64,000 nucleotides of DNA from Phoronis australis. Its lineage: Eukaryota; Animalia; Phoronida. Where the stretch lies: positions 62,001-126,000 of the forward strand of contig NMRA01000484.1 in assembly GCA_002633005.1 (NCBI GenBank), read 5' to 3'. Shown here one piece after another: positions 26,001-50,600 of the stretch. Numbering within the stretch: position 1 is the stretch's first letter; each line of letters opens with the position of its first letter. The translations under genes and the position numbers were made by a program. Under the pieces are notes generated by a model. It did not search any database, was not told where the DNA came from, and worked only from the letters and a program-made list of their open reading frames with translations.

Positions 26001-26964
26001 CTAAGGCCTAGGCAGCCAAGGGGCTGATCAAGTTAAAAAAACAACTGGTGATAATACTGAAAAACCCATGGAAAACACCAAGATGTACTTTTGAAAAACA
26101 CGTACCTGTTTTTGAAAGCTATTACTTCTTTCTCTTTCTTGAAATGTGGTCCATAACATACTTTTCCTGATAACAAATGATGCACTTATGTGTCAGAATG
26201 TTCCTATCTTGTCCAGGTTAAATGCATGTTTCATATTTTGGAAGTATAATTGATTTTCTTGGGAAATCTTGGATAACATCTGTATCACTTTCAGCAACTT
26301 CAGATTTATTACTACTGTTGGTGCCTTGAAACGTTGCTATGCCGTTCTATGTCCTTTCAATTTTTTGGTCTGACACATGGTCTTCTAGTATACAGCACTC
26401 AGCAGTATACTGTGTAGGCTACACCAGGACATGCAGCTGTTTTCTGCACAAACGTTTGTGACACATCTTCTTTTTGATCTACTGATCTACAGAGTTCCAC
26501 AGTCCATCAGCTTTAGTCAAGAAGCTTTCCTAAGCTTATTTAGGCTCTGACATCACAATTTTGTGCTGTGTAATAAACCTTGAATTATTCAGTCACCACA
26601 CTCCATGGGAGCAGCCATATCGAAGTAATTAAGCACAACAATACAATCTGGCTCTCTGATTGGTCAATTCAAAAGAAAAGCGCCACCAAGTGGCAGGAAT
26701 GTGCATCATATTTTGTGCAACAAAAGCACCTTTTTTTAAAGAAGTGCAAGTGTAGACGTGGGAACATTTTAGTATTTGATTTATAGGTATATTATCTAGA
26801 CACATCGAAAAAACTAGGTTGCCCACCCAAAGTAATCACAAGGATGAACGGTATGAGATCTGGCCCACCGACTATTACAGGGGAAAACGTTTTTGGCCAT
26901 ATTTCGTAGTGCGCATGCGCCACGTCCAATAATTCCGCCAATGATTTTCTGCACAGTTGTAGCA

Positions 26965-27730
26965 GCAAAAGGTACCCGCTCATCCAAATCCTTTACGGCA
27001 AACAGATGGCGCTGGATGCAATGATGCTTTACTAACAGGCAGCGCTGCTTACAGTCATGTGACATTCTTGTGTGAACTGAATCTTGTGTTGATAGAACAT
27101 AAAATGCAGACGTTTCTACTTGGTAAACCATCAGCCATGGCTAGTCCGGTCTGCTGGGCTCAGTGTTATTGGCTAACGAGACAGTGAACGAAAAAGAAAA
27201 TATCGCTGAGAATAAAACCTAACATGTATATCACCATGTATAATTCAAGCATAATTTAAAAAATATAGTGGTTATATTTCAACCTAATTAAAATTATGGT
27301 TGTGAAGTTGCCAAAATCTCGCCGGGCGGAAAAGTGGCCGGGCCCGGTTTAGTAGCCTCACCATGGTCACGTTCATTGAATATATATTTTACCCCAGCGT
27401 TTAGGCCGAGCAACCACAACAGCGTATATTATTAACACTTTCACCTTAATTATATGTTATAAATAGTTGTTACAAATGGGGTTTTAAACATGGAATGTCG
27501 GACACAAAGATTTCTTTTCCACACAAATTCGCCACTCATCAGGACATACACTGACTGGTTCATAAACTCTCGTGACCTGTGGTTACAGTCAGCAGCAGCA
27601 GAACTTAGGTCAAGGTTCTTCGTTAAGATTCTCTGGCAGACAGTCTTACTTGAGCGATAAAATGACACGTGATTGATGAAAAGCGCCATCTGTTAACCGT
27701 AAAGGTTTTGGATGAGCGGGTACCTTTTGC
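26965..27730. mobile_element. MULE-like MITE
   Basis: 49-bp TIR GCAAAAGGTACCCGCTCATCCAAA... (3 mismatches); 9-bp TSD GTTGTAGCA/GTTGTAGCT; interrupts a Helentron core that resumes at 27731. Confidence 0.85.
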
Positions 27731-29249
27731 GTTGTAGCTCAGGCGTTCTGGTATAATCGTACTGATTTTCAGCCATGTACGTCGAAAAATGCGGCCTTTA
27801 CGAGTAATTGACTGTGAAATTGGATACAAAATGGCCGCCACGTCCGCCATTTTGTATCCGATCAAACCAAAAACAATAGGCTTCCAGGACTTACCAATCT
27901 ACACGTCGTGTGCAAATTTCGTGAAAATCGGACGAAAATTGCTACCTGTAGAGTACGAACAAACAAAAAAACGAGGAGCGAAACTTGGCGAAATTAACCA
28001 AAAAGATGACGATAAAGATGATGACGAATATGACGACGATGTTGGCGAGGATGAACAAAAGAAGTAATAATAACATACACATGACGAACATAGAAGTCAG
28101 ATATCAGAAAGAAAAAGGCTACAGTCTTGAGCGACACTTGGCGAAATTAACAGAAAAGACAACGACAGAGATGATGACGAAGATGATGACGATGATGACG
28201 AATATGATGATGATGGTGGCGATGATGAACAACATCTCCACCTACTTTTATAGAACGTACATGTACAATCAACTACAATAAAGAACAATAGTTGGCGCAA
28301 CATGACGGACGAGCCATGCCTTACAGTAGGAGAGGGCTGGCTGGTTCAGTCTGGGTCAACTAGGCATAACCAAATCAAAGTGAACTGAAAGCCAGCCAGC
28401 TGCGTGCTTGCATAGGTGACCGAAGGAACAACGGTATCCGAAAATCTCAAATAATTCAAAAAGTAGACGTCGTAGCGCAAAATGAAAAATATGTTTTGAA
28501 AGCCCTTTTAAAACTCTATATAAATTGGTAGTTTAGCAAAAATCCAAAAAAATTTCCAGAAAATTGAAAATTTGCCCGTTTTTAAGGAAATTCAAAGTCA
28601 AATAACTCGAAAACGGTAAGTCTGAGAAATACGCTCTTGCAGACTTTTTGAAAGGCCATAGTTTAAGATATCCACATGCAAAAATTCACGTCACTTGCTC
28701 TTCCCGTTAAGAATGCGACACCAGAACGATTGAAACCGTGTGAACATGCGCCAGAGCCGCCATCTTGAAAGTGACTTCCGGTTCAATAATTTTATATAAA
28801 AGATTTTTAAACTCAACAAACACAGGTCCAGTTTGAAAGTGATTGGTTTGCAAATGCGCCCTCTACAGGAAAAAAAGGTTTTTGGCCATATTTCGGGGTG
28901 CGCATGCGCCACTTCCAATATTTCAGCCATCTTTGACCGGAAGTCGACGATTTTCTGCACACTTGCAGCACATGTGTTCTAATATAATTGTTCGGATTTT
29001 CATCCATGTCCCTTTGAAAAATGCGGCCTCTACGAGCATTTGACTGTGAAATCGGACAGAAAATGGCCTCCACGTCCACCATTTTGTATCCGATCATGCC
29101 AAAAACAATAGGCTTCCAGGACTTTTGGATCTACACGTTTTGTTAAAAGTTCGTGAAAATCGGACGAAAATTGCGACCTGTAGAGTGCGAACAACAAAAT
29201 GAAAACGCTTCGAGGAGCGAAACTTGGCGAAATTAACCAAAAAGATTAC

Positions 29250-30740
29250 CATGCTATGAACATTCCCACTAAATAAAATTGGTTCTAACCCCGGTGTTTA
29301 AGGTAAACGGCGGGGTATGGAAAATTGAACTAGACCGTATTTATCCACCTTGGCTGAGACGCGCTCGGCTCATGGTCAAAGGGATGCCGCCAAGCTGCTC
29401 TATTCATCGAGTCACGAGCGAGGATAATTGACTTCGCTCATGCGGATATGATCAGCTGATTACAGTCTAACCTAACAACTGTACTTTTTATGGAGAGAAT
29501 TTTACGTAGTTTTTACTGTAATATTTGAAAAGAGGAGCGAAAACAAATACGAATACAACTTTGAATTTTTCAAATCGGCCCAGGATAAGAGATTTTGCAA
29601 CACAGAAACACTCACGATTACTTTCATTCGGCGCGCACGAATACAAAAATATAGGACCCAAGTTAGGATTGTATAAATGTAGAACTACTCCGTGTGTTAT
29701 TTAGGTTTTGGAAAAAATGCATTTTAATACTCAAAATACGTTTTGTATAGCTATTACAAGCTCTAAAACGACTTTGTGTAATTTCATTGAGATCGTTCTT
29801 TGTCATCCGTCAAACCGGAAACTTCCGAGATGTGACTCTGCGAGCGCACTCACCTTGCACGTTACAGCCGTTTAAGTGAAAAACAATCTAGTAAACGCCA
29901 TTTTCTTGCATAATCCTCCGCCTTTTGTAACAAAAAAGTCTATCGTCGATGACCCGCACACGCACGCTCACTCACTCTCATACGCAGACGACCTTCAAAA
30001 CAAACGTCACGTGACAACAACATGTGTGTTCATCCAGAGATTTTTCTCGTGTTGTGGAGTACGATGTAGCGCACATTTGGACTTAATCGCAATTAATCTG
30101 GACTCCACAGGAACTTTAAAAATTGTAAAACATCAGGAAGATTTCAGGTAATTTGTTGAGTCGAAACTATATTTTTATTCAAGAGTACAAGTTTTCCTAT
30201 TGACGATCGCGATTCAGCGACGCATCAGTCGGCAAGTTTTCGCCCTGTGATGAGCACAATTTTTTGAAAAATTATCGTAATTTAACAACGGAAGTTGATA
30301 GCAATGCACCACAATTTTGTAGAAAGGCTGTCATAGGCTACAAATACGTCACAGAGCGTAAATTTGATGAATCCTAGCTTCCGATTTTACCCGTTTGGGA
30401 AACCGGGTTTCAACTGCCGTAGGCTCACTACAATAAGCGTCCCCTCCCCGTGAAATGAATTTTTCTAAGCGTTTGTTTGAGCCAATACAGTATACAGCTT
30501 TCCACCAAGGCTAGGTGATGCAAGACATTATTACTTGTTCTTTGTTGCATTAAAGTAACTGGTCTTGGCTAATTATCATTTTATGGCCTGGTCATCCATT
30601 CAGCCCAAAGTAGTTCCAGACGTGGCTTATCAGCCAATTATTCACGCATGCTGACTCACAATAGAAGCCTGATAAGAGTGAAGGTGGATAAATGCAGTGT
30701 TCCTACAGTTTCTTGTTTTAGCGGATGTGTTCACGACATG
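29250..30740. mobile_element. Unclassified TIR element with CATG ends and 3-bp TSD
   Basis: TAC|CATGCTATGAACA ... TGTTCACGACATG|TAC; removing it restores the array motif AAAGAT(t)ACGATAAAGATGATG. Confidence 0.75.
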
Positions 30741-33700
30741 TACGATAAAGATGATGACGAAGATGACGAATATGACGACGATGGTTGCGAGGATGAACAA
30801 AAGAAGTAATAATAACATACACATGACGAAAGTAGAAGTCCGAAATCAGTAAGAAAAAGGCTACAGTCTTGAGCGACACTTGGCGAAATTAACGGAAAAG
30901 ATAACGACGGAGATGATGACGAAGATGATAACGATGATGACGAATACGATAGTGGTGGTGGCGATGATGAACAACATCACAACATTCTAATGATGAACTT
31001 AGATGTCATAAATCAATAAGAAATAGTCTACTGTCTAGTTCAATAGAAGATAAACCAACATCAATGCAGCAAGAGCGCTCAACAAAGGAACAGCGTTATC
31101 AGAAAATCTCAAATAACTCGAAAAGTAGACGTCCTAGCGAAAAATGGAAACCATCTTCTGAAAGCCCGTTTAAAATTCTATCTAAAATGATGGTATAGTC
31201 TAATTTCGTAAATTTTTCGGAAAAAATGAAATTTTACGTTTTTTTTAAGAAATTCAAAGTCAAATAAATCAAAAACGGTAAGTCTGAAAAAAAAATTGTT
31301 AAAGGACATTTGAAAGTATATACTTCAAAGAATCCGCATGGAAAAAGTCTTTTTCTCCTCCCGTTTAAAATCGCACTCCAGCATGACTGAAAATCGGTCA
31401 ACATGCGCCAGATTCGCCATCTTGAAAGCAACTTCCGGTTTTTTTGGCTTGGTATAATAGCATGTCATAAGAAACTATTACCTGTAAAAATTCGAAGGAA
31501 TTGGTTTGATAATGCGCCCTCTACAGGAGAAAACGTTTGTAAGCCAAAATCGAGGTGCGCATGCGCGATTGCCGATATTCCCGCCATCTTTAATCGGAAG
31601 TAAACAATTTCGAGTATAGTTGTAGAAAATTTCCGGTCCATTCACTGTGCCGGTTCTTGGGCTTTTACATAAAAAATTGTAGCCTCCAGAAGCATTTGAA
31701 CCTTTAAATGAAAACAAAATGGCTGCCACAGTGGCCATCTTGAATCTGATTTTGACGAAAAACGATAGGCTTCCAGGACTTCCGGATGTACGTGTTACGT
31801 GTAAATTTCGTAATGATCGGACGAAAATTACGACCTGTATCGTGCGAAGAAACAAAAAAAAAACACGTTATAGATTACGAGAAAAGACAACGACAGATAT
31901 GATGACGAAGATGACAACCATGACGACGATGGTGGCGATGATGGACAATGCAAGTTATGATATCATTCATATTACGAACGTAGAGGTCAGAAATCTCTAA
32001 GAAATGGGCTACAGTCTTGAGCGACACTTGGCGAAATTATCCAAGAAAACAAGATGTCGGAGATGATGACGAAGTTGACGAATGTGATGATGGTAGTGGC
32101 GATTATGAACAACATCATAACATTCACATGACGAACATAGATGTCATAAATCAATAAGAAAAAGGGTACGGTCTAGTTCAATAGAAGCTAAACCAACATT
32201 AATGCAGCAAGAGCACTCAACAAAGGAACAGCGTTATCAGAAAATCTCAAATAACTCAAAAAGTAGAAGTTGTAACGGAAAATGGAAAACATCTTCTAAA
32301 ACCCGGTCAAAATTCTATCCAAATTGATAGTATCACACAATTCTGCAAATTTTTTCGAAACAAATGAAATTTTGGGTTTTTTCTTAGAAATTTAAAGTAA
32401 AATATATCGAAAACTGTAAGTCTGAGAAAAAAAAATGTTCAAGTTTATTTGAAAGGGTGTACCTTAAAAAATCCACAGCCAAAAATTCACGTCATTTTCT
32501 CATCGCGTTAATGTGGCACCTCAGCACGACTGAAAATAGGTCAACATGCGCCAGAACCGCTATCTTGAAAGTAACTCTCGGTGTTTTGGCTTTGTATAAT
32601 AGTATGTCATAAGAAAGTAATACCTGTCAAAATTCGAAGGAATTGGTTTCATAATGCACCCTCTACAGGAGAAAACGGTTTTAGGTCAAAATCGAGGTGC
32701 GCATGCGCGATCACCGATATTTCCGCCATCTTTAACTGGAAGTAAACAATTTCCGGTATACTTGTAGCAAACTTCCGGTCCATTTACTGTGCTGATTCTT
32801 AGCCTTTTACGTAAAAAATTGTTGCCTCCAAAAGCATTGTGAACCTTTAAATGAAAACAAATGGGCGTCACAGCCGCCTTCTTGGATCCGATTTTGACGA
32901 AAGACAACAGGCTTCCAGAACTTTCGAAAGTACGTGTATTGTGTAAATTTCGTGATAATCGGACGAAAATTGCGACCTGTATCGTGCAAACAAACAAAAA
33001 AAAAAAAAACTTAGTGGAAGAGCAACATACTTTACGAAATTTATTTCGCCAAGTAAAAACGAGAGCGCTTTGAGGAGCGACGCTAGGAGGAATTAATCGA
33101 AAGACGACGATGGGGAGGGCGAGCACAATCAAGACGATCAAAGCGGCAATTATGAATAACGCGATAACATTCATGTCACTAGCGAAGAAATCAAATAGAG
33201 AGCATAAAATTCAACTACAATTAAGAACAATAGATGGCCCAACATGACGGAATTCCAGTCTAGAGTAGGACAGTGCTTGCTGGGTCAGTCGGTGTCAACT
33301 AGTCATAACCAAAACAAAGTGAACTGAAAGCCAGCCAGCTGCGTGCTTGCATAGGTGACCGAAGGAACAGCGGTATCCGAAATTCTCTAATAATTCAAAA
33401 ACTAGACGTCGTAGCGCAAAATGGAAAATATTTTCTGGAAGCCCGTTCAAAACTCTATCTAAATTGATAATTTGGCAAAAATCCAAAAAGTTTTCGAAAA
33501 AAAATGAAAATTTGCCGTTTTTTTTAAAATTCAAAGTCAAATAACTCGAAACGGTAAGTCTGAGAAATACGCTCCCTCAGGCTTTTTGAAAGGCCATACT
33601 TCTAGGAATCCACATGCAAAAATTCACGTCATTTGCTCTTCCCGTTAAAAATGCGACACCAGAACGATTGAATCCCTGTGAACATGCGCCGCAGCCGCCA

Positions 33701-34254
33701 TCTTGAAAGTGACTTCCGGCTCAATAATTTGCTATAAAATCTTATTAAACTCAACAAACACGTGACCAGTTTGAAAGTGATTGGTTTGCAAATGCGCCCT
33801 CTACATGAGAAAACGTTGTTGGCAATATTTTTGGGTGTGCATGCGTCACTTCCTATATTTCCGCAATCTTTTATCGGAAGTCAACGATTTTCTGCACACT
33901 TGTAGCGCATGCGTTGTAGTATAACATTCTGATTTTCAGCCATGTACGTCGAAAAATGCGGCCTTTACGAGTATTTGACTGTGAAATCGCATTCAAAATG
34001 ACCGCCACGTCCGCCATTTTGTATCCCATCATGACCAAAAACAACAGCGTTCCATAACTTCCCGATCTACACGTTTTGTGCCAAATTCGTGAAAATCGAC
34101 GAAAATTGCGACCTGTAGAGAGCGAACAAACAAAAAAATTGCAGTCAGACCAACATACTTTGCGGAAGAATTCCGCCAAGTAAAAAACAAACTTGATGGA
34201 AGACCAACAAACTTGGCGAAATTTATTTCGCCAAGTAAAAATACTTTACTGTGG

Positions 34255-34570
34255 GAATGCGCGATATACAGCGTGATGAAGTGATGCTCAAGAGCGGATG
34301 AGCGCAAATGCGTGCTGCTTGTTGAGCATTCCCCGGCATGAAAACACTTGAGCTCGTAAAACATCCAGCGTTGTATTCTGATTTTTATGCAAAATCACTG
34401 TAACGTTGCGAATTTTGTGGTTGTTGCATAATGTATAAAAGCATCATATCTAGAGTTCGAAATTATGTTTTCGCGATATCATTTAACGGTTGATTTTGCC
34501 ACGCCGTCTGCAATTCAACATAAAGTTTACGTTTTTGTAGATTGATTCAATTTTACCACCTTTCAATAAT
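34255..34570 (+). mobile_element. Continuation of the TTAA-ended element split by the array
   Basis: Inverted homology to 56100-56430 (GGATGAGCGCAAATGCGTGCTGCTTGTTGAGCATTCC). Confidence 0.8.
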
Positions 34571-34630
34571 GTCATAGTTGGTGTACTTTCCGTTAAACCA
34601 GTTAAGTTCCCATTGTAATTTTCAGAGACC

Positions 34631-35105
34631 ATGGCTTCCGCAGACAACATCACATATGACTGCGTCCTGATATTTCACAAGAATGACAGAAAAGAGGCAT
34701 CGGCATACCTAAGAGAACTCCAAGGTCTGAAAATAACAAGCTGTCTTTACGATGACCCTTCGGCAATCCCTAAAGACGAGCTATACGAGATGGATAAGAT
34801 TTCGTACTTACTTCAATATTGCCGTGTATGTTTGGTATATATGAGTGAATCATTATGCAGACAAACAGACGAGGACAGACAAGCACACGAGGACAAACAA
34901 GCAAAGCATGTTGTCTACATGGCTCTGGATGCTATTTTGGATGACGAAGAAAGTCAATTCAAAAACAAGTTGATTCCATACTACCCTACAACTAAGCAAA
35001 ACCTCAGTGCCAGATGGAGGGCTTTGAGGCCAATAAGCGGACTACAACGAAAGAGTCACTATTATGAAAATCATCTAACTCAGATTTTTCCGGAACTCAA
35101 ACAAG
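34631..35105 (+). CDS. First coding exon of a TIR-domain protein (TICAM/TRAM-like TIR)
   Basis: Acceptor taattttcAG at 34625, Kozak-like accATGG, intact frame with YDCVLIFH..D...A, ITSCLYDD, CRVCLVYMS, MALDAIL..KNKLIP, ALRPISGL..YENHLTQIF; donor CAAG|GTATGA after 35105 (phase 1). Confidence 0.8.
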
Positions 35106-37084
35106 GTATGAAAGCTCGTCAAGGTCCCATGCAACTACACCCTACCCTTTCAACTTTGAAAACGTTGATAAAGCCCGATCACGCGTTGTTAACCCTTATT
35201 ACGTGGTTAGAGGATGTTATAAGGATCCAAGAAGTACTTACCCCATAACTAATACACAATCCAGACTCGAAAAAATTTAAATGAACGCGCCACGCACGAT
35301 TCGCACCCGACGAACGACCGCCATTTTGAAATTGTTGCGAACCCGGAAGTATAATTCATTCAGGAACCCAGGCTAAGAAAACGCCGTCAGTGCGACTGGA
35401 GCAGTGCTGGTTACCAGCCTTCAAATGGGGATAAAATAATCGACATCACGCCATAATTTTAATGAAATCAAAACACGGATAATTTTATCGAATTTGCTGA
35501 AGAAATATGGCGAATAAATTTTGACAGAAATTATTTTGCCGGACTCGGGACCGCAGCCACTCGGACCCGGTGCGGATCGAGGCCAGACACTGGCGAACGG
35601 TAAAGGCATGCGGTTGCAAGCTGTTTTGTCGAAGTAAAATGGTCAAATCATAAATGCTGCATATATTCAAGGGTAGTTTCAGACACTTGCATGAAATTAC
35701 GGGCTGGTTAGTCCTGTGTCACACTGCCGCGGCAGACCTTAGTTAGCCTCAGTCACCAGCTACCAGTGAAGACTATAGTCAAAATATAGCTTGTTAGTAG
35801 GCCTATACAGCTTTTGCGCCAAGGCTACCCTTAGGCCTAACTGGTCGCTGGCCATAAACACAAAAAACACGAAAATTGAACAAAGTTTCTTTTTTGTAGC
35901 AACGTTTGTCAAAATGTATCAATGTTAAAACTTCACAAATTACAAAGTAGCCGATTGAACATGCCTTTCAGTTCAGCAAAAGTCGCCATTGTCGGTGCCG
36001 TCGGAAATGAGACGAAGTCCAACGGGAAGTGTGAGCACATTTATCACTTAATGAGTAACAACTGCGAGGCGGATATTTGGTGAACACTGTTAAATCGTGC
36101 AGAATAGTAAGTAAAGATATATCTAACTAAATTTCACCGTAATTTGTTGGCAAAAACAATTTACACAAAGTTTTAAACTCGTAACTCATCCCGCTGTCCT
36201 CCAATATGGCCGACGCGATCCAAACAAAGTGACCCAAATTTCGCCACAAAACTTGCAATAACTTTACAGTGCTTGCCCCGATTTTGATACTTTTTCGATT
36301 TTTACTGAGTAGAATGTACTACCTTTCCGATGATAGCAAAGTACTTTTTCAAAACGAGGAAAAAAATAAAACCCAAAAAAAATTGGTTCGACCCATATTG
36401 GTTCCTAGGTTCGACCCGCCTACGTAAGGAACTAAACACCAATGCTATTTTAACATACTAAGTACGCGTAACATTCCAAAAAAATCAACGACCACTAACT
36501 ACAAACTATAAATACACTACATATGCAAACGAATCACGATATATTACTAATAAAACAAAATAATGAAGACTTTTCGAGCAAGCCATAGCACATTCAGTTA
36601 CAAGGAAAAAATGGCGGCGTTCATGACAAGTTCCTGAACTGATGAGCCGGAAATGTGGGTACGGAAATAACCGATGACATCCGGTAATCATACGCTCAGA
36701 GAGAAGGGTCAAATGCTGTTAAAAAATCGCTTTTGGCAAGAAAGGCGAAAAGAATATAAAGAAAGGTTGTCGAAAATAATAATTGATGTAGTAATTATTT
36801 TCGGATACTGGAACCACATGGGCAGTTTGCATGAAGGACTTTAAGTAGCGACTCGATTTTCACACTAGGTGGTGTTAGCGATTGAAGGTGGCTGTTCTTA
36901 AATCTGAGTAGTGCGTGAAAATTGAGAGTAGAAAGTCGTTCTTCAGCATAGGAGTGTCTGTTGGTTAAAAGTTCCACGTGACTCACTCAATACATGCTGT
37001 ATACAGGTAGGACCATTGTCTCACTAGCGCCACTGTGTGACTGTGTTTCCATTGCGTGCTTCATTTTTAAAGTATGATGAACTA

Positions 37085-37350
37085 AGGTGTAGATATTGTG
37101 GGATTGCTAGGGAGGACAGGGTACATGTATGTCAGTGCTGTAATGTGACAAGGATTTAAAATGAAATACACTCTTTGCTAGATTGTACTCTGTATAGAAA
37201 CATCTGCTAGAGATACTTAACGACGAATATTAATAACGTTGATTTTGGAAACGTTATTAGTATTGTAAAATCTCAAAACTGTAATGACTTGATAAACATT
37301 TGTGAATACTTGGTGAATACTGAGAAGAAAAGAAAGGCATTGTTAGGTAA
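37085..37350 (+). pseudogene. 3' fragment of a CR1/L2-group LINE ORF2 (C-terminal zinc knuckle)
   Basis: RYCGIAREDRVHVCQCCNVTRI*NEIHSLLDCTLYRNI matches R-C-x2-C..EDExHFLLxCxxY. Confidence 0.65.
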
Positions 37351-37432
37351 AATAATATAATGCAACGGTTTTTGCTTCCTAATAGCCGTGCGGTGATAGT
37401 TATTGTCTATTAATTTCATCGTAATGTGGGTC

Positions 37433-37780
37433 AGTGGAATTCTTTACAGTACACCATGACCATATACATCCGCTGGAGTTCTTCACTGTACACCATGACC
37501 ATATACACCCACTAGAGTTCGTCACTGTACTGCACTATTCACCCAATGGAATACTTCACTATACAAAGTTACCAAATACACACAGTGGAGTTATTCATTG
37601 AATAGCATGACCATATACACCCACTGAAGTTCTTCACTTTACACCGTGACCATATGCACCCAGTGGACTTTTTCTCTAAATATCATGACAACATACGCCC
37701 GGTGGAGTTCTTCACTGTACACTATGACGTTATACACCCATTGGAGATCTTCCAAGACCATATATACCCAGTGGAGTACA
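37433..37780 (+). repeat. 39-bp minisatellite, about 9 diverged copies
   Basis: Unit TACACCATGACCATATACACCCAGTGGAGTTCTTCACTG. Confidence 0.9.
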
Positions 37781-38533
37781 TTGATTTTGTCAACAGGAAG
37801 ATTCGCCTCCTTTATTTTGACTTACAATGTAGTTTATAAGTTAACGATCTGGAAAAGGACCGTCTTGGATTACATAGCATTAAAACTCTCGTTTGTACCG
37901 GCGATAACAAAGTGTGTGATATCATTTTGAAAATTTGTCACATTTTTATATCTTATTCATGTAGGGAAGGCACAATATTTCAGATGACGCATCCACGGGT
38001 ATTTGTCCAGTTTACATGTATCATACTTTTTGAAGTCGGTGTTGCATTGGAAAGACAAATACAGAAATGTAACCGAAGGAAACTTAAATGGTAAAGAATC
38101 ACACACCAAAAATCATGTCACTCCAGTGGCACGAAAACCAGGCAGCAAGTTTGCTAGATGGATAATTTACGGCATCATGGGTAAATGCAGCGAGATTCGA
38201 GTGTCGCCGTCTAATCCGGGACGGCCTTATTGACTATCTCGGAGGGAGCCTCAAACATTGGAATCATACATGTATGTGGTCTCCACTCTGTTTTAAATGG
38301 TATATACCCCTTCGTATTGGGGAATTAAGCAATGCACATAAATAGTGATTTGTGCAGTCAAACCACGAACATTCGATATAATATTCAGTATTTTCTGTGT
38401 GACGTTTTAATTTGCAATCAAGCGTATTACGCGTGTGTAGTAATGTACTCCTTAACTTTACTCAGAAATGGAAGAACTTTGTATCGAACGAGCTTAGTCA
38501 CACCTTAATATGTTTATTTTTCCTTTTCTGTAG

Positions 38534-38692
38534 AACATTTGCCAAGCCATCTGAAGGGTAACGTTTTGATCGACACCAGCAACGATTCACATGGCGATCC
38601 GCATGGCAAACCTCGAGGTGATCCGTCCAATAATCCTCCAATCGACCATGGGTCCCTTGCAGATACAGGTGACTTTAAACGTGACAGCCTTA
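38534..38692 (+). CDS. Probable second coding exon of the TIR gene (low-complexity D/H/P/G linker)
   Basis: Strong acceptor tttatttttccttttctgtAG; phase-1 entry gives E-HLPSHLKGNVLIDTSNDSHGDPHGKPRGDP...; phase-1 donors after 38668 (ACAG|GTGACT) or 38692 (CTTA|GTGAGT). Confidence 0.65.
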
Positions 38693-41651
38693 GTGAGTTT
38701 ACGTTTTACATTCTCTTATTAGCAAAATGACGCTATTGTCAGCTACTAATCAAATGACAAAGAGTAGCATTTGAATTGAAAGTTGACTTGTTATCAGGTG
38801 GTTGAGAGCTCGATAATCGTTACAACTTTCTAAGGAAGGTAACAGAAAATAACAGGATATGAATTTTTGCTACTTACGAGGGCCATTTAAAACCAGTCTC
38901 TAACGAGCGATTAAACAATGAAGTACTATTTAACGCAGCACATAAACACACTTTGTGTATCAATTCTGGGCAGGAGCAGGTAGTTGAGTGCGAAGAAACA
39001 TGTGGTTTGTGGGGAAAGATATGTGTGAAATTTTAGCTTGCAACCTCAGAAAAGAGAATGTTGTTTAAAATTAGAGAAAGCGCCCATAAAACTTATCAGG
39101 AAAGATGACCGTCTACCCTACCTGTTTGTACAGTGTAGCACTTACATGTACATTGCGAATCTTACACGAGTCTTAGGTTTACGACCTGGGCAAAACCTCT
39201 TGAATACTGAATTACCCTTGAGACAGCAAAGCTAGACAGCCTCACTGCATTTCCTGAGTTGGGGTTCGTCTCCGTTTGAATGAAGTTGGATATGTAATTC
39301 GTCGCCGGAGATGGGTTCGTTTAGACTGGGAGTACGTACATGTACAGTTGCGACAACCGATTTGTCAATCACAACCTTGTCACTTAACGGAACTCCGACA
39401 TTGTTTGGTTGCCGCGTGTTTGGTTGTCTTAGTGTTTGTCAGAAGATAAAATATATTAAGGCGTATGGATTTCTTCTTTGAACTATATTGTGATTCGCCC
39501 ATGCAATATCAAAACATTATGTACTCCTTATTATTAACCACTGGTGTCATGTGAGAAAGTCTACAATTTTCATTCTATAGAAATCATCCATTCAAGTGAA
39601 AAACATAACTGGATCATTTGCATGGATACGTAATTTAACAGGTTATGTGAAACCTCATCAAAATTTTGGGTGTTTGGCTAAAAAGTGTAACGTCTGTTAA
39701 AATTGATTAATACAAACTACCACTGACTGAGTATCTGGTATAATTTAGCAAGATCGAGGAAGGTATATTCGAAAAATAAAAATCCTTCCAAAGTGGAACA
39801 TTTTAAAACGATTCCCAACAGCTGTTTCAAGAATAATGGAATGTAAGTTACTCATTCAGTTGTAGCATTATGCAAATCAAAATCAACTGTACATAGAAAG
39901 TCCAGGAGTCTGTTTATTTTGATTTGCGTTCGCTGTTTAACGAACAGTGCATAGATGATGTGGGAGTTTTATTTCAATTTGACTGTCATTTCAAAGATAG
40001 GCCTACGATGTTTAGAACTTAGCAAAATTTGGACATTTTTCTAGGATCACATTAAACATGGGTTCTGACTATAAATTTTGAATCCAACTTCTTGTATGTT
40101 TCTAGGAAAAGACAGCAGCGTGCATCACCCTGGATATGTTCAATCGGAAAAAACGGTAAAATTAAATGAAATATTGTACAATAATTAATGCAATATTGAT
40201 ATTTGATCAATTTCAAACATGTCAGATAGAAATTAGACCATGAGTTCAAATTAACCCCATAGCCAATGCACACAAAATATCTCCAAATCATCCCAACGGA
40301 AGTTCTTATCGAGCTTATTTCCGTGTGTCCCTTTTTGCAATGGCTGAAGACATACATGTAGAAGACTCTCAGTTCTTTCTCCGCCAGCCCAGTGATCATT
40401 TCTGAACTGAGTAAGAAACACATAAGATCAATTTTTACACCGGAAAGTGGCATGAATAAAACTTGATTTTGTCGCGAAAGAAAGCTTGTCTGGGGGTTGG
40501 GTGCCACCTTAACTTAAATAAAACTTTCCGAGATTCCATACAATTTAAGAATGTCGTGTTTTGTTTTGATCATGTAACAAGAGCGGAGGGAATCGATCGT
40601 GCTCGGGAACACAAAACTGGCAATTTTAACTTATAGCAAACCTATTGCTTTAGAGAGCATGGTACTACTCTAATTCCACTAGAAACAGTTACCAAGAATC
40701 TCAACGCCACTACCACAGACTACGGTGTTGGCGACTCAGTTATAGGAGAATTATGATAGTCTAACTTAATTGAAAACGGCTAATCTGCCTGTCCGAGCGC
40801 AAGAGTATAACACGATTTTTATCTTTCGGACAATCTGGTTGAACCAGAGTTCAACCGAAAGCCCAAAACGTGTCAAATACCAGTTGGTAGCTACAAGTAT
40901 ACATATTAAAGCGACACTGTTGATTTGGTGGATTATTCGTTGGGTTTACTTCCTCCTTAAATGCAAATGGGCGGAAGGTCACTAACAGAGGTCCTGGATT
41001 TTTTGTGGAGTTCTTTGCAATCTGATTTGTTTCCTCAACATTTCTATAGCGTGTGGACGAAGTGCATGTTCCCGAATGCCAATTTTATGTTTAACAACTG
41101 TGTAAACTGCTTTTTGACGAAAGTACAATTTCATGTGAAATTGAATAACACTTCCGCTTCGTAACGTTCTATTAAGTCTGTGTGTATCTGTTTAGGATAA
41201 GTAAAACCAATTGGTTTAAATCTGACGGGTGTAAAACTTTCCCACCTGTAAACAATCTGACTGAGACTCCAGCAGCCGATTTCCTAAAGGTTGTTAAAAT
41301 TAAACCTGGTTTAAACTGGACTTAGAGCCGGTTTAAAGATAATCCGTAGTTCATAAAGAGGTGGTTTAACTTTTAAACCAGTGGTCTTGTAAAACCTGGT
41401 TTAACTCCAGTTTAGATCTGGTCTAAGTCACTTTTCACTTAAACAACGAGGTTTATATTCTTTAGACCTGTATTAAGATCTTAAACCAGGTTTAACTTTA
41501 GACCTGGTCAGTCCCAGGCTTAACACTGACACAGACTTGTCGCATGTTATAGGTGAATGATATAACGTGGTGTGCATTTACGACTTAGTTTTAGAGCGAG
41601 AATGGACTATTCTCAATTTTCAGTTTAGTGGCGACACAACACCAAACGTAG

Positions 41652-41790
41652 CAGGGGCGGATCCATGATTTTTAAGGGGGATCAAGGATTTTTAAATAGG
41701 GGCAACCATGTCAAAATTTTGAAAATTATAGATTTGTTATCACTAACATCAAGGGAAAAAGGGTTCCGGACCCCCTTGGATCCGCCTATG
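41652..41790. mobile_element. Short MITE, copy 1
   Basis: CAGGGGCGGATCC...GGATCCGCCTATG flanked by CGTAG/CGTAG. Confidence 0.8.
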
Positions 41791-42646
41791 CGTAGACCAG
41801 TGCGTGTTACAGGGCGTCCTTCGGATTCCTGTGAATACGACTGGTCGAACATGGCGTCATCGTCGTAAGCGCCAAGGGTTGACTGAAGACGGCATCTGCT
41901 GATTCTTCTGACCGAGTTCCACCACCAGTGGTCTCCTATTTAATGGTGCCAGACAGGGGTCCTGCCCCCCATATGGCCGCAAAAATAAACACTAAATTGA
42001 CACGAACACAAGTTCGGGCACTTATTATGTTTCGGCTAATCTTGAGCATGTACTGTAATGTGTGCACGTGTGTTGGACACGGACATTACATTTTTCCTCA
42101 TGAGAAAAGCTTTTACACTTTTTTTGCAAATGTCTGCATTGATTCTACTACTGTGTGCCATTGTGTGCCTCCATGATCAAGGTTTCATTGAAGCAATTCA
42201 ATAGTTTCTTTGTTGGGTTAATCCAGAACAACACAGTAGGGTGGCTTGGATACGTTAAACCCAGTCGATTTGATTGGGCTGATTAAAAGTAAAACCTGGT
42301 TTATACTTGATTATACCATGTTTTAAGATAATCTGCATTCCATAAAGGTGGTTCAACTTTTAACCCAGTGGTTTAGTAAAACCTTGTTTAACTCCAGCTT
42401 AGACATGGTTAGAGTCAGTTTTCATTTCACCAACGAATTATATACTGTCTAGACCTTTATTAAGATCTGAAACCAGGTGTAACTTTAGACGTGATCATAA
42501 CCAAGTTTAATACAGTTAAATATGACAGACTTGCACGATATAGGTGCAAATGAATGATGCCGCGGTGTGTATTTATGACGCTGTTTTAGAGTTAGAATGG
42601 ATTATTTTCAATTTTCTCTTTTACAAATACACATAACCAAACGTAG

Positions 42647-42800
42647 CAGGGGTGGATCCAAGATTATTTAAAGGGGATATCAGATCAAAGTTTTTTTTTT
42701 GGAGGGAACCAAGTCAAAAATTTGAAAATCAAAGGTTTGATAGCACTAAAATCAAGTGAAAAGGGGATCTGAACCCCTCGACCCCCCCGATCCGCTTATG
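42647..42800. mobile_element. Short MITE, copy 2
   Basis: CAGGGGTGGATCC...GATCCGCTTATG flanked by CGTAG/CGTAG. Confidence 0.8.
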
Positions 42801-43946
42801 CGTAGACCAGTACGTGTTGCAGGGTGTCCTTCGGATTCCTCAGAATTCGACTGGTTGAACAGTGCATCATCGTCGTAAGCGCTACGGGTTTCACTGAGGA
42901 CGGAATCTTCTGATTCGTTTGGCAGAGTACCACCTCCATTAGTCACCGATTTAAGGTTGTCGGGCAGGGATTCTGCCTCCACATTTAGCCGTGAAAAATA
43001 AACGCTAAAATCACACGGAAAAAAATTTGAGCATTTGTTATGCCGCGGGAAATCGTGAGTATTTGCACAGACATTACAAAATGAAAAGTTTCTCCTGATG
43101 ATATCCTATAGCCAACACCATTTTTCACACTCACGTCGCTTTGGCAAACCTCTCTAATATATGATAATATGTCAAAAGTGGGATATTTAGATGGTGTTGC
43201 GCGAGGGAGGAAAAAATGAGAGCGGGGCAATTATCTGGTTTGATGACTAAACTTGCCGAGAAATCACTGATTGCATAGAATCGTACCTCTAGTTTCCCAT
43301 TTGATGAATTATATTAATAAAGTGAAAATGAAGCAATGACATTAGGTTTGATTTGATAAGTACAATTCTCGACCAAAACTCAATCGAGCAGGCACCCGGA
43401 AACTCTCAATGCAAACTCTCGCAGCTGGTCTCGGGCTCGCAAGCTCCAGTAATATAATACATAGGTCACGAGCGGAAGCTGGTATTTCAGGGCAGAGATC
43501 TATGATACAAGAAGTTCAACTCGCCAGCATGCTGTAAGGATTTACCTCGTCAGATAAATGTGTGAGACACTCATCTCGCGAGGCAAAATTCCCAAAATTC
43601 GTTTAAGCGCAAAAGTGAGTTGTGTTTTGCGCTCGTTTGCATTCGAGGCTCATACATGTAGATCTGCGTCGGTGTTGGGCACTAGTCTCTCAAGTTCATC
43701 GCGTAACCAACTTGCTGTCTTCATTACTAGTGGTAATGTTTGTGGACCTGAAATGAAGGATAACAGCAGTGTTGGAACGATTTACTGAAGCATTTTAATC
43801 ACCGTTTCGCAGCATGGTGAGCCCCATGACTGAAGCATCCCCTGCTAGCATGATCAACTAATAGCAGTTAATATAGTCACATCTCGATAAAAAAAAAACA
43901 ATTCTAGCTTAGTTTGTGGGGATAAAAAGTATCGTTTTTTGTTAAG

Positions 43947-43988
43947 AGTTTCCGACAACTGGACTGGAGGATACGCCAACAAACACAG
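43947..43988 (+). CDS. Candidate 42-nt phase 1-1 micro-exon of the TIR gene
   Basis: tttttgttaAG|(E)FPTTGLEDTPTNT|GTGACT; frame-preserving, same ACAG|GTGACT donor context as the 38668 donor. AAG acceptor is weak. Confidence 0.3.
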
Positions 43989-46897
43989 GTGACTAGATTT
44001 AATTACCTGTTGATTGAATTTATCTGATCAACATGTGTTAGAACTCAATTTAAAATTTTCAATGACATAGTTTCTTAACTCCGAATTCTTGTTCCAAAGA
44101 CGGCATTGGTTCATTAAAAAGTGAATGGACACGTACATGTACAGTATACAGTGTAACCGGTCTCAAAACATGTCTTTGAAGACAACCTGCAGGCAGAACA
44201 CTTAGAAACTCAAATTAGCCTATGGAAGTTTGAAAACAAAACGCTGTATGTGTTAGTACTATGAGTGCCTCGTGAAGCAGAAGATAATACGTCTGTTCTT
44301 CACTACTGATCGGGTTGATTCGCCTGTGTGTTTGCAATATTTTTCAACATTACTTATTTTCAGCAGTTATTCCTCAGTAGTTGGCATTATTCTTAAGTCA
44401 CGATCGGAATGCAAATTGCGTCAGTATTGAGACACGGCCTTTGAGGCCACAGAACAATTCTTGATTGGTTTTGCCTAGCAAAACACACACAACTGGACTT
44501 GTCGGAATTCGAATGTAAAGAGTGAAATGTTCGGAGAATTTTCCCTGCAAAATCCCTACAGATGAGCACATTTAACTTTATTGTGTCTAGTATTTTCGTA
44601 AACTTCGCTCCTTCTGGAAAGCAACGTGGGGTGAGAAAAAAGGGACAACAACATCAAATCGGCACTTTTCGCAGCGAAACCACCACTTAACTACTGTTAC
44701 ACGACGTAAGCCAACATTATATTATGAAAGCAAATTTCCTACAGATTCCAGAAATAAGACCCAAAAAGTAATATTAATTGACTTTTTGCAATGGCTGCTA
44801 GTTTGAGGAGTACCTGAAATCGCAGCAAATTTCTCAGTCGCTACCCACCAATGTACAAATGAAACAGGGGGTCGCGATCTTAAGGACGAGGACAGTTACA
44901 GCCGAGAAAGTGATCCCTTTCTTAAAATGTTCAAAAATTACATGCAACACATACCTTAAAACTGCCCCCAAGGAACTTGCTGTGTGTCAAAATGACTTAG
45001 ACTGTTAAGTGGAGCTAAATTGCATAGACCTAATTCAAGCGGCGGACATTAAAATCCAAAGTGAGGCTCACTGCGATAAACAAGCGGAAATTGACATTAC
45101 GTGAGTTAAATGGTCTGTTTTAGAGACCAACCTGCATATTTAATCTTAAAAATGTGTCGATAATTAACCACAGAGACGTAGAAAAACATTTTAGAGAACA
45201 AGTCAATGTACCAAAGAGCTTTCTGACGAAAGGGTATAAGTTATTTTTCGTAAAACTAGGTTTGAATTATGAAAAGTAAATATGACCAAACTTCGGATAT
45301 CGTGGTGTTACGGATTAGGCATTATGCTGAGTGCAGGGTTAAGTTTCTTCTAGTAAATTGTTGATATAAATGCTTCCTACACGAACCAGGTCATCTGCTT
45401 GCATTGTTGACGAGTTGAAGATATATTCGACATTGGTGACTCGTTGCATTGTGCTGTCATGTGCAAATAGTCACTTCTGGTTTACTTTGTTGATGAAGAA
45501 TGTTAACATCAAGCATATAAACTAGGTTCTCGTGAGGTAGGGACTAGCGGGACTATGCGTTGATTTGTCATTGATCTGAAAGAATAATCGATGTTATTAG
45601 ATATACTTTTACGAAAATAAAAAATAGTTACGTAATTGAAAATAACAATTATTTGACCATCAATAGCATGGTTTTACGTCTCGTGTGATAGATTTCAAAT
45701 ATCAATCTGGTCCAAGTTGAATTTTAAAATTGAAATACCTTATTCGTTCAATTTCGGTTAGCTGGACAAAGCAAGCATAGTTGTCATGCTTCTTCAGGGG
45801 CCTCGTTTATCCGAGGGGAAGGTGCTTGTGCTTTCTGAGAGATACTTTTTTTGCCGAGTGTGGGGAAAATCTACCTGCAAGGTCTTATAGGCTCTGTCTC
45901 AAGTAGTATTTTTGTGCTTTTTCAAAGTGTCACCTGTGTGGTTACGGGTGATTTGAACTTCAGACAGAACTTTTCAATCACTAGGGCATAGAATTTTTCC
46001 AGGTCTCGTGGGGTGAATTTCGGAGGATTTTTCAGTATTCTTTGAAGGGGAATAGGGCCGATAGTCGGCCCCAAAATCGAGAGATTGAGGGCCCTGTCCT
46101 TTTTGGAAAGAAAAATGCATCATGTTTCCACCCGTAGTCATAAAAACACAGCCAGGGTGGCCAAATATTCTCCGCCCGTCAGGCTGATGATGCTCGAAAA
46201 CCGAGATGCCACAAAATATGCTCTAACTTTTCGAACATACACTGTATATATAAATTTCCTTCCTCGCGGCGTGTGGCAGCAACCCAGCACTTCCGAATCT
46301 CAACGTGGTGAGGGATTGTAAAACAGACAAAGTTGAGTGTCCGTATTTTTTCAAGGCCTTTGAGCAACCCGGAATACAACCTGTAGGCCAATAAGCCAAA
46401 AGCTATCGTAGCGAGCCTCGTTTTGGAACCCGCCTCCTGTCGGCGTGAATTAGGTCTATACTACACTAAGAGTCTTGCATAAACGCATTGCAGAGTAACT
46501 TGTTTGCAGAGCCTGGAAATATCAAAAGTTCTTGAACACTGTTAATCACAGAATAAAGTGTGTAGGTCTAAATACCTCTTTGTATCTTGATATTTATCTG
46601 ATTTTCCATAAAGTGTCATGACCTTTGGTCATAGGCGGCGCACCATACTGGACTGTGCCGCCCATGGTCTATGGGTGCTGCACCACAGGGGGCAGATGGG
46701 CTATTGACCCACTTTTTAGGGCTTCGCCACCCACGTTGGTTACTGAAATTTCCAATAGACTAGGGTGACCGATGCCATTCGATAGCAGGAGGGTGATGAT
46801 GTGTTTCGTTTACGTCCACTGGTAGCGACTTCCACAGAATGTTACCCGCCATCTCGGGTGTCACCAGATGCACACTGCTATTTCGTGATATAGTCTG

Positions 46898-47786: not shown

Positions 47787-50600
47787 TATTGTCTGTGTCC
47801 CACAACGCAAAGACATCATTCATGCTCTCAAAACTGCTTAAAAGCATCCAACATTTTCTTGCCCAATGAAAATGGAAATGCTTCTTAATGTAACAAATCA
47901 TCCAGTCAAAAGCCAATCTAGTTTTGACAGTAATAACGAAATATAAGAGTATAAGATATTTATGACAATGATATATATCTTGATTAAAGTAAAATATCAA
48001 CCACAGTAATACATGTACACAATAGATCCACACAATTCCCGACGCTGACACATAAGCTATCTAATGTTGTTAATTAAGTAGGGTGTATTGAATGAAACGC
48101 ATCATACAATTTACGGATGTGTATTGGCATGACTGATCGGATTTTGAAACTTAGACTTAATGAAACATTCCAAGGATAAACAGAGTTCTGTCAACAGCCA
48201 TAATTCTTGACAATGTTAGAATTTTAGATCAAGATGCTTGTAAATTCCGTCTGTTTTTATAGAAAGTTTCAAAATAATAGAACACAAGCCCTAGCTCAAA
48301 AGATTGTCGCCATCATATGACATCCAGACATTCACTGTAATTTTACATCCATACCCATACCAAAAAAGGCCTTCCTGCAAACACTTGCCACAAGTTTGCC
48401 GCAAAGTTGCCGCAAGCTTGTTGTAAAATTTTCTGCAAAACAGCTGCAAACACATGGAATCATCTCTGACCAAAGAGTGGATGCAAATTTCCTGCAACCC
48501 AGCCGCAAACATTGCTGCAAGCTTGCCGCATGCTTGCCGCAAATATGCAGTAAATTTTACCTTGTAAATGAAGTTTGCCGCAAGCTTCCTGCAAACATCT
48601 TTACGTCCTTATATGGAACAGTTTCTATAACCCATCTGCATACATTGCTGCAAGCTTTCCGCAATTATCTTCATAGGGTTATATAGAAGTTTCTGCGAAC
48701 CACCTGAAAAAAGATTGCTGCAGGACTACAACATAATACTTGAATTGTGGCATTAATAATTTAATGTAGAAATGTCATTGGCAAATAAAGTTATTGTATG
48801 CCCGCTTGTTAAAACAAGAAAATACAGAATCAGCTGCATACTGGATTTAACATGATTGTTTTCAATCTAATGTATAATGACTGGAAATGGATCCAAAATC
48901 ACTTGACAATGAATAACAGAAACTATAAAAGTGTCTACACTGGCAATTTGTAATACTACTTGTATTACAATCAAAATTTTTTCTAAAGAGAACAACTTGA
49001 ATGTATGCAAACCTTAATTACAATGTACCAAGAAGTTTTATTTTTAACGCACGACAAAGTCTATGGTAATTTCAACATTGATATCATTTACCTGACTAAA
49101 CTAACAACAGCAACACAGAGCGTTGCAATGCGCCCACGGCCGCACCACCAACGGGGTGTTTATTACCACTGAAAATGGCGCAAAATATGTCGAATACCAG
49201 TGGAGAAAACTATGAAATCAGACTCTTCCTCCGTGGAAAGGCATACTTAGAACAGCATGCCGAGCACATTTAAGTATTTTATTTTAAATTATCTCATTAC
49301 TTATCAACTGAAAAAATCACTCTTAACAATTATAAACGTATTTATTCTTCCAATCTGTCTAATACTTCATTGATTCCTATTTTTGCTTCTCAATATGGTT
49401 TCATGAAGCACCAGTCTACCGAATGGATTATTGTTGAACTTGTATGTTGAAATTTGCAATATTTCGACTATAGGGATATCATCCAGCAGCAACATTCATT
49501 TATCGAAGGCATCAAATCTAAATTACACCTTTCCATTCTACAATATTACCATGGTGTTGAAAAGAACAATTACAGAGGTAAATGTCAAGTTATAGTCATA
49601 CTAGTAGACGTTCTAAGCACATTCTACTCCAGACTAATCTGCATTACAACAATCACTGGACAGGTGTTGCATAGGGATCATGGGATGATCGCTCCAATTT
49701 TCTTCCTTCATTGTTCTAACCAACCGTGAGATGCTGTGTATGCCGTTTGTTCCGGTATTTTCAACTCAAACTTGTTGCCTCACAACCTCTGCTGTGTGCC
49801 TGGCTTTCATCAAGTACATTATGTCGTTCAATATTCATATACCTAAATATGAATGCTATTTCACTTTCCATAAAAAGGCATTTGTGGTAGCAATATTAGA
49901 ATCTCAATTACGTATTTAACCGAAATTTGCTCTTGCTTATGTATGAACCGACAGTTGAACTTGTGTTCAGTTAACCAGTATGACTGCAGAGACTGAGAGC
50001 TGGCATATGACTGAAGGTGATGGCAGTTAAAACATCTAGAGGTAGTTAATATACAAGTATGCAAATCTTAGTTTGTGCCCAATACTTGCCGTGCATTAAA
50101 CCAAAATAAAAATTAAATTTGGTGTTCCCTCCTGTGAATTAAACAGTCAGCGAGTGATGTTAAAATTCACACAGAATTAAGTTTTACTGTCTCAAGTTAA
50201 GTGATTAATTAGAAAGTCTGGTTACATGTAACTTGACAAGGTTTTGGAAACATATTTGGTTCTGGTCTCAACCCAGACTCATTTTGAAATCTGTGCTATA
50301 CTTTTACCAAAACCATCATAACCTTCAATTTGGCTGAATCAGTTAGAAAAGCAACTTCCTTTTGTTAGTAAGACCAAAACTACTGATTCATGAATGAAAT
50401 CTAAGTACTTAACAATCACATCAAAATAAATACAAATTTAAAATCAAAACTCACATCCATACAGCTCTTTAGTTATCCATGTAGAGTCTATGCTGTACGT
50501 AACCTTGACAACCACATGCTTTCCTTGATAACAGTCCCACCAGTTCAACATGTTGCTGGGTTAGCATAAATACTGTAATTTAAATAAACAATCAACTCCC

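What the first reader, a model, noticed from the sequence alone, without database searches (positions are those of the whole stretch)
34626..38692. Intact TICAM/TRAM-like TIR adaptor gene in a transposon-dense invertebrate locus
Seen: an uninterrupted 158-codon exon with good splice signals, among otherwise decayed ORFs. Known: it follows the TIR beta/alpha order, and its end (KNKLIP...ALRPISGLQRKSHYYENHLTQIF) resembles, from memory, the TICAM2/TRAM end (NSVIP...ALQTINAL....FPTQVERIF) more than MyD88 or TLR TIRs. TICAM-type adaptors are best known from chordates. Inference: an N-terminal TIR plus disordered linker, with no WCxxE motif, suggests a scaffolding immune adaptor of an uncharacterised invertebrate family rather than an NADase.
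Basis: partly seen in the sequence, partly recalled or inferred. Interest (0 to 1): 0.72.

Follow-up and report, generated by a model that had tools for sequence, protein, structure and literature searches.

The report
Orphan TIR-like gene, not proven TICAM
This is a spliced animal gene with low-level transcribed relatives whose first coding exon likely encodes a very divergent TIR immune-signalling domain, likely without enzyme activity; it is likely one more of the many lone TIR proteins of invertebrates, and nothing found here ties it to the TICAM/TRAM adaptors.

Summary
The exon is real: 34626-35105, AG/GT ends, 158 codons from ATG 34631. RNA shows transcribed relatives at 80-90% identity (9 reads, 1 contig), but no read at 90% or more on this exon and no 35105^38534 joint. 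Their 5' ends point to an unreported non-coding first exon ending at 30147, which makes the domain N-terminal. Standard searches find no TIR and no relative among 1.84 billion proteins. A custom TIR_2 profile scores it weakly (12.1 bits, 0 of 2000 shuffles), and best once a visible 18-base tandem duplication is skipped. In that register the catalytic glutamate column holds alanine 98; a rival register uses glutamate 81. Fold searches do not single out TICAM: TRAM, TRIF, SARM1, TIR-STING and MyD88 tie, and TICAM-type motifs are missing. Verdict: probably a fast-evolving, lineage-restricted, non-catalytic orphan TIR gene, a known kind in invertebrates; TICAM orthology about 10%. Interest 0.3.

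The parts
30000..30147 (+). Likely non-coding first exon (5' end not defined; start given is approximate), donor GT at 30148
   Evidence: All RNA records that reach the exon's 5' end start aligning at 34620-21, six bases inside the intron, and the contig has a loose 5' end. The only TTTCAG|GT donor in the window is at 30147; its last nine bases fit the loose end (1 match, 6 of 100 shuffles). Pattern chosen after seeing it. Joined in frame it has stops before ATG 34631. Not shown by reads laid on 30147 itself.
34626..35105 (+). First coding exon: 5 bases of leader, ATG at 34631, 158 codons, phase-1 donor
   Evidence: Sequence; splice ranks; 9 reads and 1 contig of relatives at 80-90% identity.
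34655..35092 (+). Predicted divergent TIR-type domain, residues 9-154; BB-loop proline 47, strand C serine 72, alanine 98 at the catalytic column, strand D proline 116
   Evidence: Custom TIR_2 profile; ESM Atlas nearest named clusters TIR_2/SEFIR at 0.84-0.87, lead only. N-terminal half better supported than C-terminal half.
34856..34908 (+). In-frame tandem array of an 18-base unit (about three copies, 14-16 of 18 bases alike) that lengthens the helix C region by about 12 residues; carries Glu81 and Glu87
   Evidence: of 146 possible 12-residue skips the five best for the TIR profile start at residues 77-82.
38534..38668 (+). Predicted second coding exon, 135 bases, phase 1-1, Pro/Asp/His/Ser/Gly-rich linker; weaker alternative donor at 38692
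   Evidence: Splice ranks and open frame; not covered by RNA.

Best explanation
This is a spliced gene of a small family with transcribed relatives; it likely encodes a cytoplasmic protein that begins with a very divergent TIR domain, likely lacking the catalytic glutamate, and so would act as a non-enzymatic scaffold or decoy that binds other TIR domains in innate immune signalling. Shown: the coding exon and its splice signals, transcribed relatives, no detectable homologue in the public protein sets searched. Inferred: a non-coding first exon at 30147, the TIR fold (about 0.8), alanine 98 at the catalytic position (about 0.75 given TIR), splicing to the linker exon at 38534. From family knowledge only: TIR-TIR assembly with receptor or MyD88-type TIRs, and an adaptor or inhibitory role as proposed for orphan TIRs of molluscs and shown for amphioxus TIRA and TIRC (PMC11103948, PMC6043800, passages).
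For: Transcribed relatives keep the frame and the hydrophobic strand A pattern while changing fast: 12 of 18 altered codons among codons 7-33 change the residue, none to a stop (only differences away from the contig ends were listed, 21 of 28). At least two sequence types appear among the four runs. A 70-sequence bacterial TIR_2 profile scores the exon 12.1 bits, 0 of 2000 shuffles reach it; a whole-domain profile alignment gives Z 3.2-3.5, 0 of 300 shuffles. Skipping residues 79-90 raises the score to 15.4 bits and extends the match through strand D, and the best of 146 skips fall on the DNA tandem repeat. MAFFT with 30 TIRs gives a colinear alignment with the gap at that repeat and the glutamate column on A98. 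A profile of 30 anticodon-binding domains gives no signal (994 of 2000 shuffles reach it). Both Atlas searches return TIR_2/SEFIR clusters.
Against: No TIR hit in Pfam, NCBIfam, PADLOC or PDB sequences. The 30-sequence profile was not significant (70 of 1000 shuffles), nor hhalign (44 and 128 of 200). On the 70-sequence profile 1 of the 747 other window frames scored higher (12.6 bits) and 3 of 30 true anticodon-binding domains reached 12.1 or more; 2 of 60 real control segments reached Z 3.2. The C-terminal half alone has no signal (397 and 293 of 1000 shuffles). The 70-sequence MAFFT alignment and a crude profile aligner prefer the other register, with E81 at or near the glutamate column, and AlphaFold left free in the C-half also made residues 93-98 a strand; that model matches anticodon-binding domains (Z up to 8.5) better than TIRs (Z up to 6.9). 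This copy itself was not seen in RNA. No binding or activity was tested.
Confidence: 0.5

Rival explanations
1. It is a true member of the TICAM (TRIF/TRAM) lineage and signals as a MyD88-independent adaptor.
For: In the poor single-sequence model TICAM-1 TIR was the only TIR among the listed rows, rank 11, E 1.0. In the better model TRAM gave the longest TIR alignment (109 residues, Z 6.5). No catalytic glutamate in the preferred register.
Against: All these scores are non-significant or tied with SARM1, IL-1RAcPb, TIR-STING, TRIF, SEFIR, TIRAP (Z 6.0-6.9); TRAM is rank 29 by Foldseek. No Pro-Gly BB loop, no N-terminal extension, no RHIM, pLxIS, TRAF or myristoylation motif. No TICAM was retrieved by phmmer from PDB or 1.84 billion proteins. 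Papers place TICAM in chordates only (PMC9440496, PMC6043800, PMC9334734).
Confidence: 0.1
2. It is a catalytic TIR that cleaves NAD+ or makes cyclic ADP-ribose, with Glu81 or its duplicate Glu87 in helix C and residues 93-98 as strand D.
For: Alignment A2 puts E81 in the invariant glutamate column; AlphaFold built helix 80-86 and strand 93-98 without guidance there. Most non-TLR animal TIRs keep the glutamate and many make cADPR (10.64898/2026.04.20.719644, sections 5 and 8).
Against: E81 and E87 lie 9 and 15 residues after Ser72, whereas 40 of 48 scored reference domains have 12; no WxxxE; this register drops helix D and strand E and leaves about 40 residues unexplained; both glutamates sit in a recent tandem repeat; the strand A serine is isoleucine. 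Model confidence there is pLDDT 56-60.
Confidence: 0.12
3. This particular copy is a silent or decaying duplicate of an expressed family member; the protein work is done by the relatives.
For: No read at 90% identity or more on the exon, almost none on the linker exon; a repeat insertion inside helix C; no convincing further coding exon downstream in the window; dense repeats around it.
Against: Frame, start and four splice sites are intact; the relatives are also barely expressed (9 reads), only 18-19% of three runs was read, tissues are unknown, and some reads near 90% may be divergent alleles of this gene.
Confidence: 0.16
4. The exon encodes another alpha/beta domain that shares the first three strands with TIR, such as an anticodon-binding-like domain.
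For: Top structural matches of the half-guided model are HisRS/ProRS/GCN2 anticodon-binding domains, Z 7-8.5; such domains can score 12-14 bits on the TIR profile.
Against: No sequence signal on an anticodon-binding profile (bacterial set, not diverse); Atlas neighbours are TIR_2/SEFIR; Z near 8 is common for models without a clear match (note); the half of the model that decides the topology has pLDDT 42-60.
Confidence: 0.12

Closest known systems
Orphan TIR / TIR-only proteins of invertebrates (21 in greenlip abalone, 57 in oyster, PMC11103948; 17 TIR-only in Aplysia, PMC9334734; ecTIR-DC families as cited in PMC6321704)
   Same: Lone TIR-type domain with no transmembrane, leucine-rich-repeat or death domain seen; multi-copy; proposed adaptor or decoy role.
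   Different: No sequence relative found, too divergent for Pfam; assignment to a numbered ecTIR-DC family not testable here; the 3' exons are unknown.
TICAM2/TRAM and TICAM1/TRIF (and lancelet TICAM)
   Same: Predicted non-catalytic cytoplasmic TIR, BB-loop proline kept, domain in one exon, disordered flank.
   Different: TIR starts at residue 9 with no N-terminal extension; no Pro-Gly; no RHIM or other TICAM motif found; no sequence hit; structural scores tie with other TIR families.
TIR_2 (PF13676) / SEFIR-like domains, including SARM1 and oyster TIR-STING
   Same: Order and spacing of strands A-D and helices align colinearly once the repeat is skipped.
   Different: Alanine at the catalytic glutamate column, isoleucine for the strand A serine, 12-residue repeat insertion; score far below the Pfam cut-off.

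Membership tests
TIR domain superfamily | Significant match to a curated TIR profile (PF01582, PF13676, PF08357) | tested here: not met
   No hit at E up to 10, with HMMER filters on.
TIR domain superfamily | Conserved core pattern of strands A, C and D in TIR order | tested here: met
   Weakly: 12.1 bits, 0 of 2000 shuffles; colinear alignment; controls show the score is not decisive.
TIR domain superfamily | Five-stranded parallel sheet with five helices | tested here: inconclusive
   Single-sequence model pLDDT 37; half-guided model pLDDT 67, N-half imposed by the TIR alignment, C-half weak; TIRs and anticodon-binding domains both match.
TICAM (TRIF/TRAM) | Placement in the TICAM clade by phylogeny | not testable with these tools
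   No TICAM or other animal TIR sequence was returned as a usable protein by any search.
TICAM (TRIF/TRAM) | BB-loop motif E-D-F-x-x-P-G of TRIF-like group 37 (PMC7075850 section 55) | tested here: not met
   Proline 47 is in the column, followed by lysine; no Pro-Gly in the predicted 211 residues.
TICAM (TRIF/TRAM) | TRIF N-terminal domain and RHIM (PMC9440496), or TRAM's myristoylated N-terminal extension (recalled) | tested here: not met
   Domain starts at residue 9 after in-frame stops; motifs absent from the two predicted coding exons. A RHIM in undiscovered 3' exons is not excluded.
TICAM (TRIF/TRAM) | Structure closer to TRAM/TRIF than to other TIRs | tested here: inconclusive
   TRAM Z 6.5, rmsd 5.3, 109 aligned; TRIF 6.2; TRR-2 6.9; SARM1 6.5; MyD88 5.7: tied within about 1.
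Catalytic TIR NADases (SARM1, TIR-STING, bacterial TIR_2) | Glutamate on helix C pointing into the pocket | tested here: inconclusive
   A98 in the preferred register; E81 in the rival one.
TLR / IL-1R / MyD88 | Transmembrane and ectodomain, or death domain, before the TIR | tested here: not met
   In-frame stops precede ATG 34631 in the inferred first exon; rests on that exon being correct.
Invertebrate orphan TIR / TIR-only proteins | TIR as the only recognisable domain of the full-length protein | tested here: inconclusive
   True for the two predicted coding exons; the 3' end was not found.

The most novel reading that the evidence does not exclude
A lineage-restricted, fast-evolving family of N-terminal TIR adaptors, invisible to Pfam and without relatives among 1.84 billion proteins, that descends from the TICAM line outside chordates and gives this animal a MyD88-independent signalling branch.
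Probability: 0.08. Interest if true: 0.68.

Novelty: new member of a known kind. Interest (0 to 1): 0.3.

Why it matters
As read here it shows that invertebrate TIR repertoires are undercounted: this gene escapes Pfam and every homology search tried, yet has transcribed relatives. That is useful for annotation but expected, since orphan TIR genes are numerous in invertebrates. It would matter more if a tree put it with TICAM in a non-chordate, because the MyD88-independent branch is held to begin with lancelets (PMC6043800, PMC9334734), or if the repeat-borne glutamates proved catalytic.

Tried and rejected
Homologue searches with no result: word-index search for longer and near-length proteins (0 of 126 and 0 of 10 candidates), phmmer over 1.84 billion representatives (0), JGI metagenomes (0 of 82 stretches), GTDB genomes (1 of 52, a chance match on the opposite strand of a transporter gene), plasmids (3 weak chance hits). 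No paralogue in the window by tblastn. No genome is held for the window, so copy number and 3' exons beyond the window could not be checked. No RNA holder was listed by the index; same-label runs were laid instead. Single-sequence fold and its two searches were uninformative. The prediction of self-assembly was not available, so binding was not modelled. The whole 15-base loose end has no match in the window at 3 mismatches; only its 3' part fits 30147. Likeness of the minus-strand frame 42752-43105 to the linker exon rejected (838 of 2000 shuffles). No Rfam family in 29000-44000. Earlier findings of this scan: none. Literature searches for TICAM-like adaptors outside chordates gave none in the passages read; one listed paper with one use of 'TICAM-like' (PMC7960669) was not read, and the 2017 ecTIR-DC survey was seen only second-hand. 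Supplements: those of PMC9440496 were listed, not read; those of the bioRxiv preprint on animal TIR catalysis were not seen and hold about 16,000 eukaryotic TIRs that may include relatives.
Full report
Observation. The window is animal-type genomic DNA, about 39% GC, with remains of LINE-like reverse transcriptases, an RNase H and a DUF1758 retrotransposon protease and an array of decayed 1-kb repeats from about 20000 to 34190. That it is an invertebrate is inferred, not shown; no genome is held. Length alone proves little: 51.5% of 200 simulated sequences held a frame of 158 codons, 6% one of 209, the length of the whole open frame. Splice sites are good by a hand-set matrix: donor 35105 ranks 36 of 3691, acceptor 38534 is in the top 0.2%. 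The second exon keeps the frame and encodes a Pro/Asp/His/Ser/Gly-rich stretch; it more likely ends at 38668 than 38692 (ranks 25 and 280 of 3691). Of three phase-1 candidate exons downstream only this one is convincing, so the 3' end is unknown.

Expression. The index listed no RNA holder. I laid three raw RNA runs (11.0-12.8 million records each, 18-19% of each run) and one contig set with the same species label. At 90% likeness nearly all depth fell on repeats, no joint 35105^38534 was listed, and the bin with the second exon had depth 0, 0.19 and 0.10. At 80% likeness 9 reads and 1 contig lay on the exon, all under 90% alike. The contig has 28 differences in 140 bases; of the 21 listed, which touch 18 codons, 12 codons change residue and none becomes a stop. 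The runs differ from one another at these sites, so at least two sequence types exist. These are paralogues or very divergent alleles. So the exon belongs to a transcribed, fast-changing family, but this copy was not itself seen.

A missed first exon. The records that reach the 5' end all begin at 34620-21, six bases inside the intron, and the contig continues with unlike letters. That is expected if the upstream exon ends in the same six bases as the intron. The only such donor in the window is at 30147, and its last nine bases fit the loose end (1 match; 6 of 100 shuffles give one; a longer pattern 0 of 100). I chose the patterns after seeing the match, and had no lay left to test it. Joined in frame, this exon has stops before ATG 34631, so the domain would start the protein, which argues against a TLR, IL-1R or MyD88 layout.

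Is it a TIR? Curated libraries say nothing and no relative was found in 5.8 billion clustered or 1.84 billion representative proteins. The ESM Atlas returned TIR_2 and SEFIR clusters at 0.84-0.87, which the tool calls a lead only. I therefore built a reference from bacterial TIR_2 domains, which behaves as a TIR profile against the PDB. With 30 sequences the exon was not significant (70 of 1000 shuffles; hhalign 44 and 128 of 200). With 70 it scored 12.1 bits, 0 of 2000 shuffles, and Z 3.2-3.5 in a whole-domain alignment. Controls temper this: 1 of 747 other window frames scored 12.6, 2 of 60 real protein segments reached Z 3.2, and 3 of 30 anticodon-binding domains reached 12.1. The signal lies in the first three strands; the C-terminal half alone has none. 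The best independent support is positional: the exon holds about three copies of an 18-base unit at 34856-34908, and of all 146 possible 12-residue skips the five that most improve the TIR score start at residues 77-82, extending the match through strand D. I put the TIR fold at about 0.8.

Structure. Folded alone the exon gave pLDDT 37. I then supplied only the N-terminal halves of 69 TIR domains so that AlphaFold would choose the C-terminal register itself. The N-half is thus guided and proves nothing by itself. The model had pLDDT 67, 42-60 in the C-half, and made residues 93-98 a strand. Foldseek found nothing at E 0.001; TLR2 ranked first (E 0.016), TRAM 29th. VIA-align ranked anticodon-binding domains first (Z up to 8.5), then TIRs: TRR-2 6.9, TRAM 6.5, SARM1 6.5, IL-1RAcPb 6.4, TIR-STING 6.3, TRIF 6.2, MyD88 5.7. 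By sequence the exon has no likeness to an anticodon-binding profile (994 of 2000 shuffles). The fold test is inconclusive and does not pick TICAM.

Catalytic site. Two registers compete. In the first, the repeat is an insertion, proline 116 marks strand D and the glutamate column holds alanine 98. In the second, glutamate 81 takes that column and 93-98 is strand D. I prefer the first: it explains the whole exon, agrees with the DNA repeat, and in the second the serine-to-glutamate spacing is 9 against 12 in 40 of 48 scored references. This matters because most non-TLR animal TIRs keep the glutamate and many make cADPR (10.64898/2026.04.20.719644; abstract, passages, sections 5 and 8 read).

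TICAM membership. TRIF-like TIRs carry an E-D-F-x-x-P-G BB loop and were found only in jawed vertebrates (PMC7075850; outline and sections 9, 10, 35, 55 read); TICAM is traced to lancelets (PMC9440496, outline and first part of Results; PMC6043800, passages) and was not found in Aplysia (PMC9334734, passages). Here the proline is kept but not the glycine, there is no N-terminal extension, and no RHIM, pLxIS, TRAF or myristoylation motif in the predicted 211 residues (motif patterns recalled). A tree was not possible. It may work like TRAM, as a non-enzymatic bridging TIR, but it should not be filed as a TICAM.

Mechanism and verdict. Most likely the protein's N-terminal TIR joins TIR assemblies of receptors or MyD88-type adaptors, as scaffold or competitor, with the linker leading to unknown downstream parts; this step rests on family knowledge (orphan TIRs in PMC11103948 and PMC8609888, ecTIR-DC in PMC6321704, amphioxus TIRA and TIRC in PMC6043800; passages only) and was not tested. 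Confidence 0.5; rivals are a silent duplicate (0.16), a catalytic TIR (0.12), another alpha/beta fold (0.12) and true TICAM orthology (0.1). Lone TIR genes are common in invertebrates (21 in abalone, 57 in oyster; PMC11103948), so this is a new, unusually divergent member of a known kind. Interest 0.3.

Noticed in passing
window 30573-30750 (+): A short open frame scores 12.6 bits on the TIR_2 profile over strand C to strand E, as high as the exon itself. It has no start or clear splice sites and runs into a repeat; probably chance, possibly a decayed TIR fragment in the first intron.
   Followed up: partly
window 41294-42049 and 42283-43062: Tandem duplicate of about 1 kb, 76% alike; the second copy has a 117-codon minus-strand frame (42752-43105) with no Pfam hit; RNA reads join the copies in other arrangements, suggesting a dispersed repeat.
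   Followed up: partly
window 20000-34190: Array of decayed 0.7-1.1 kb repeat units, 70-87% alike, interrupted by unique stretches, one of which holds the inferred first exon.
   Followed up: no
window 7017-14639 (-), 16807-18222 (-), 50601-51809 (-): Retroelement remains: endonuclease, reverse transcriptase and zinc-binding pieces of a LINE; a frame with RNase H; a DUF1758 aspartic protease piece.
   Followed up: partly
window 53702-53765 and 61818-61898 (+): Short exon-like stretches with good splice scores; whether either belongs to this gene is unknown.
   Followed up: no
window 35179-36850: Repeat inserted 74 bases after the exon's donor; heavily covered by RNA reads of other copies at 90-95% likeness.
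   Followed up: no
window 37432-37777, 48290-48690, 52779-53330: Degenerate short-period tandem repeats in introns or intergenic DNA.
   Followed up: no
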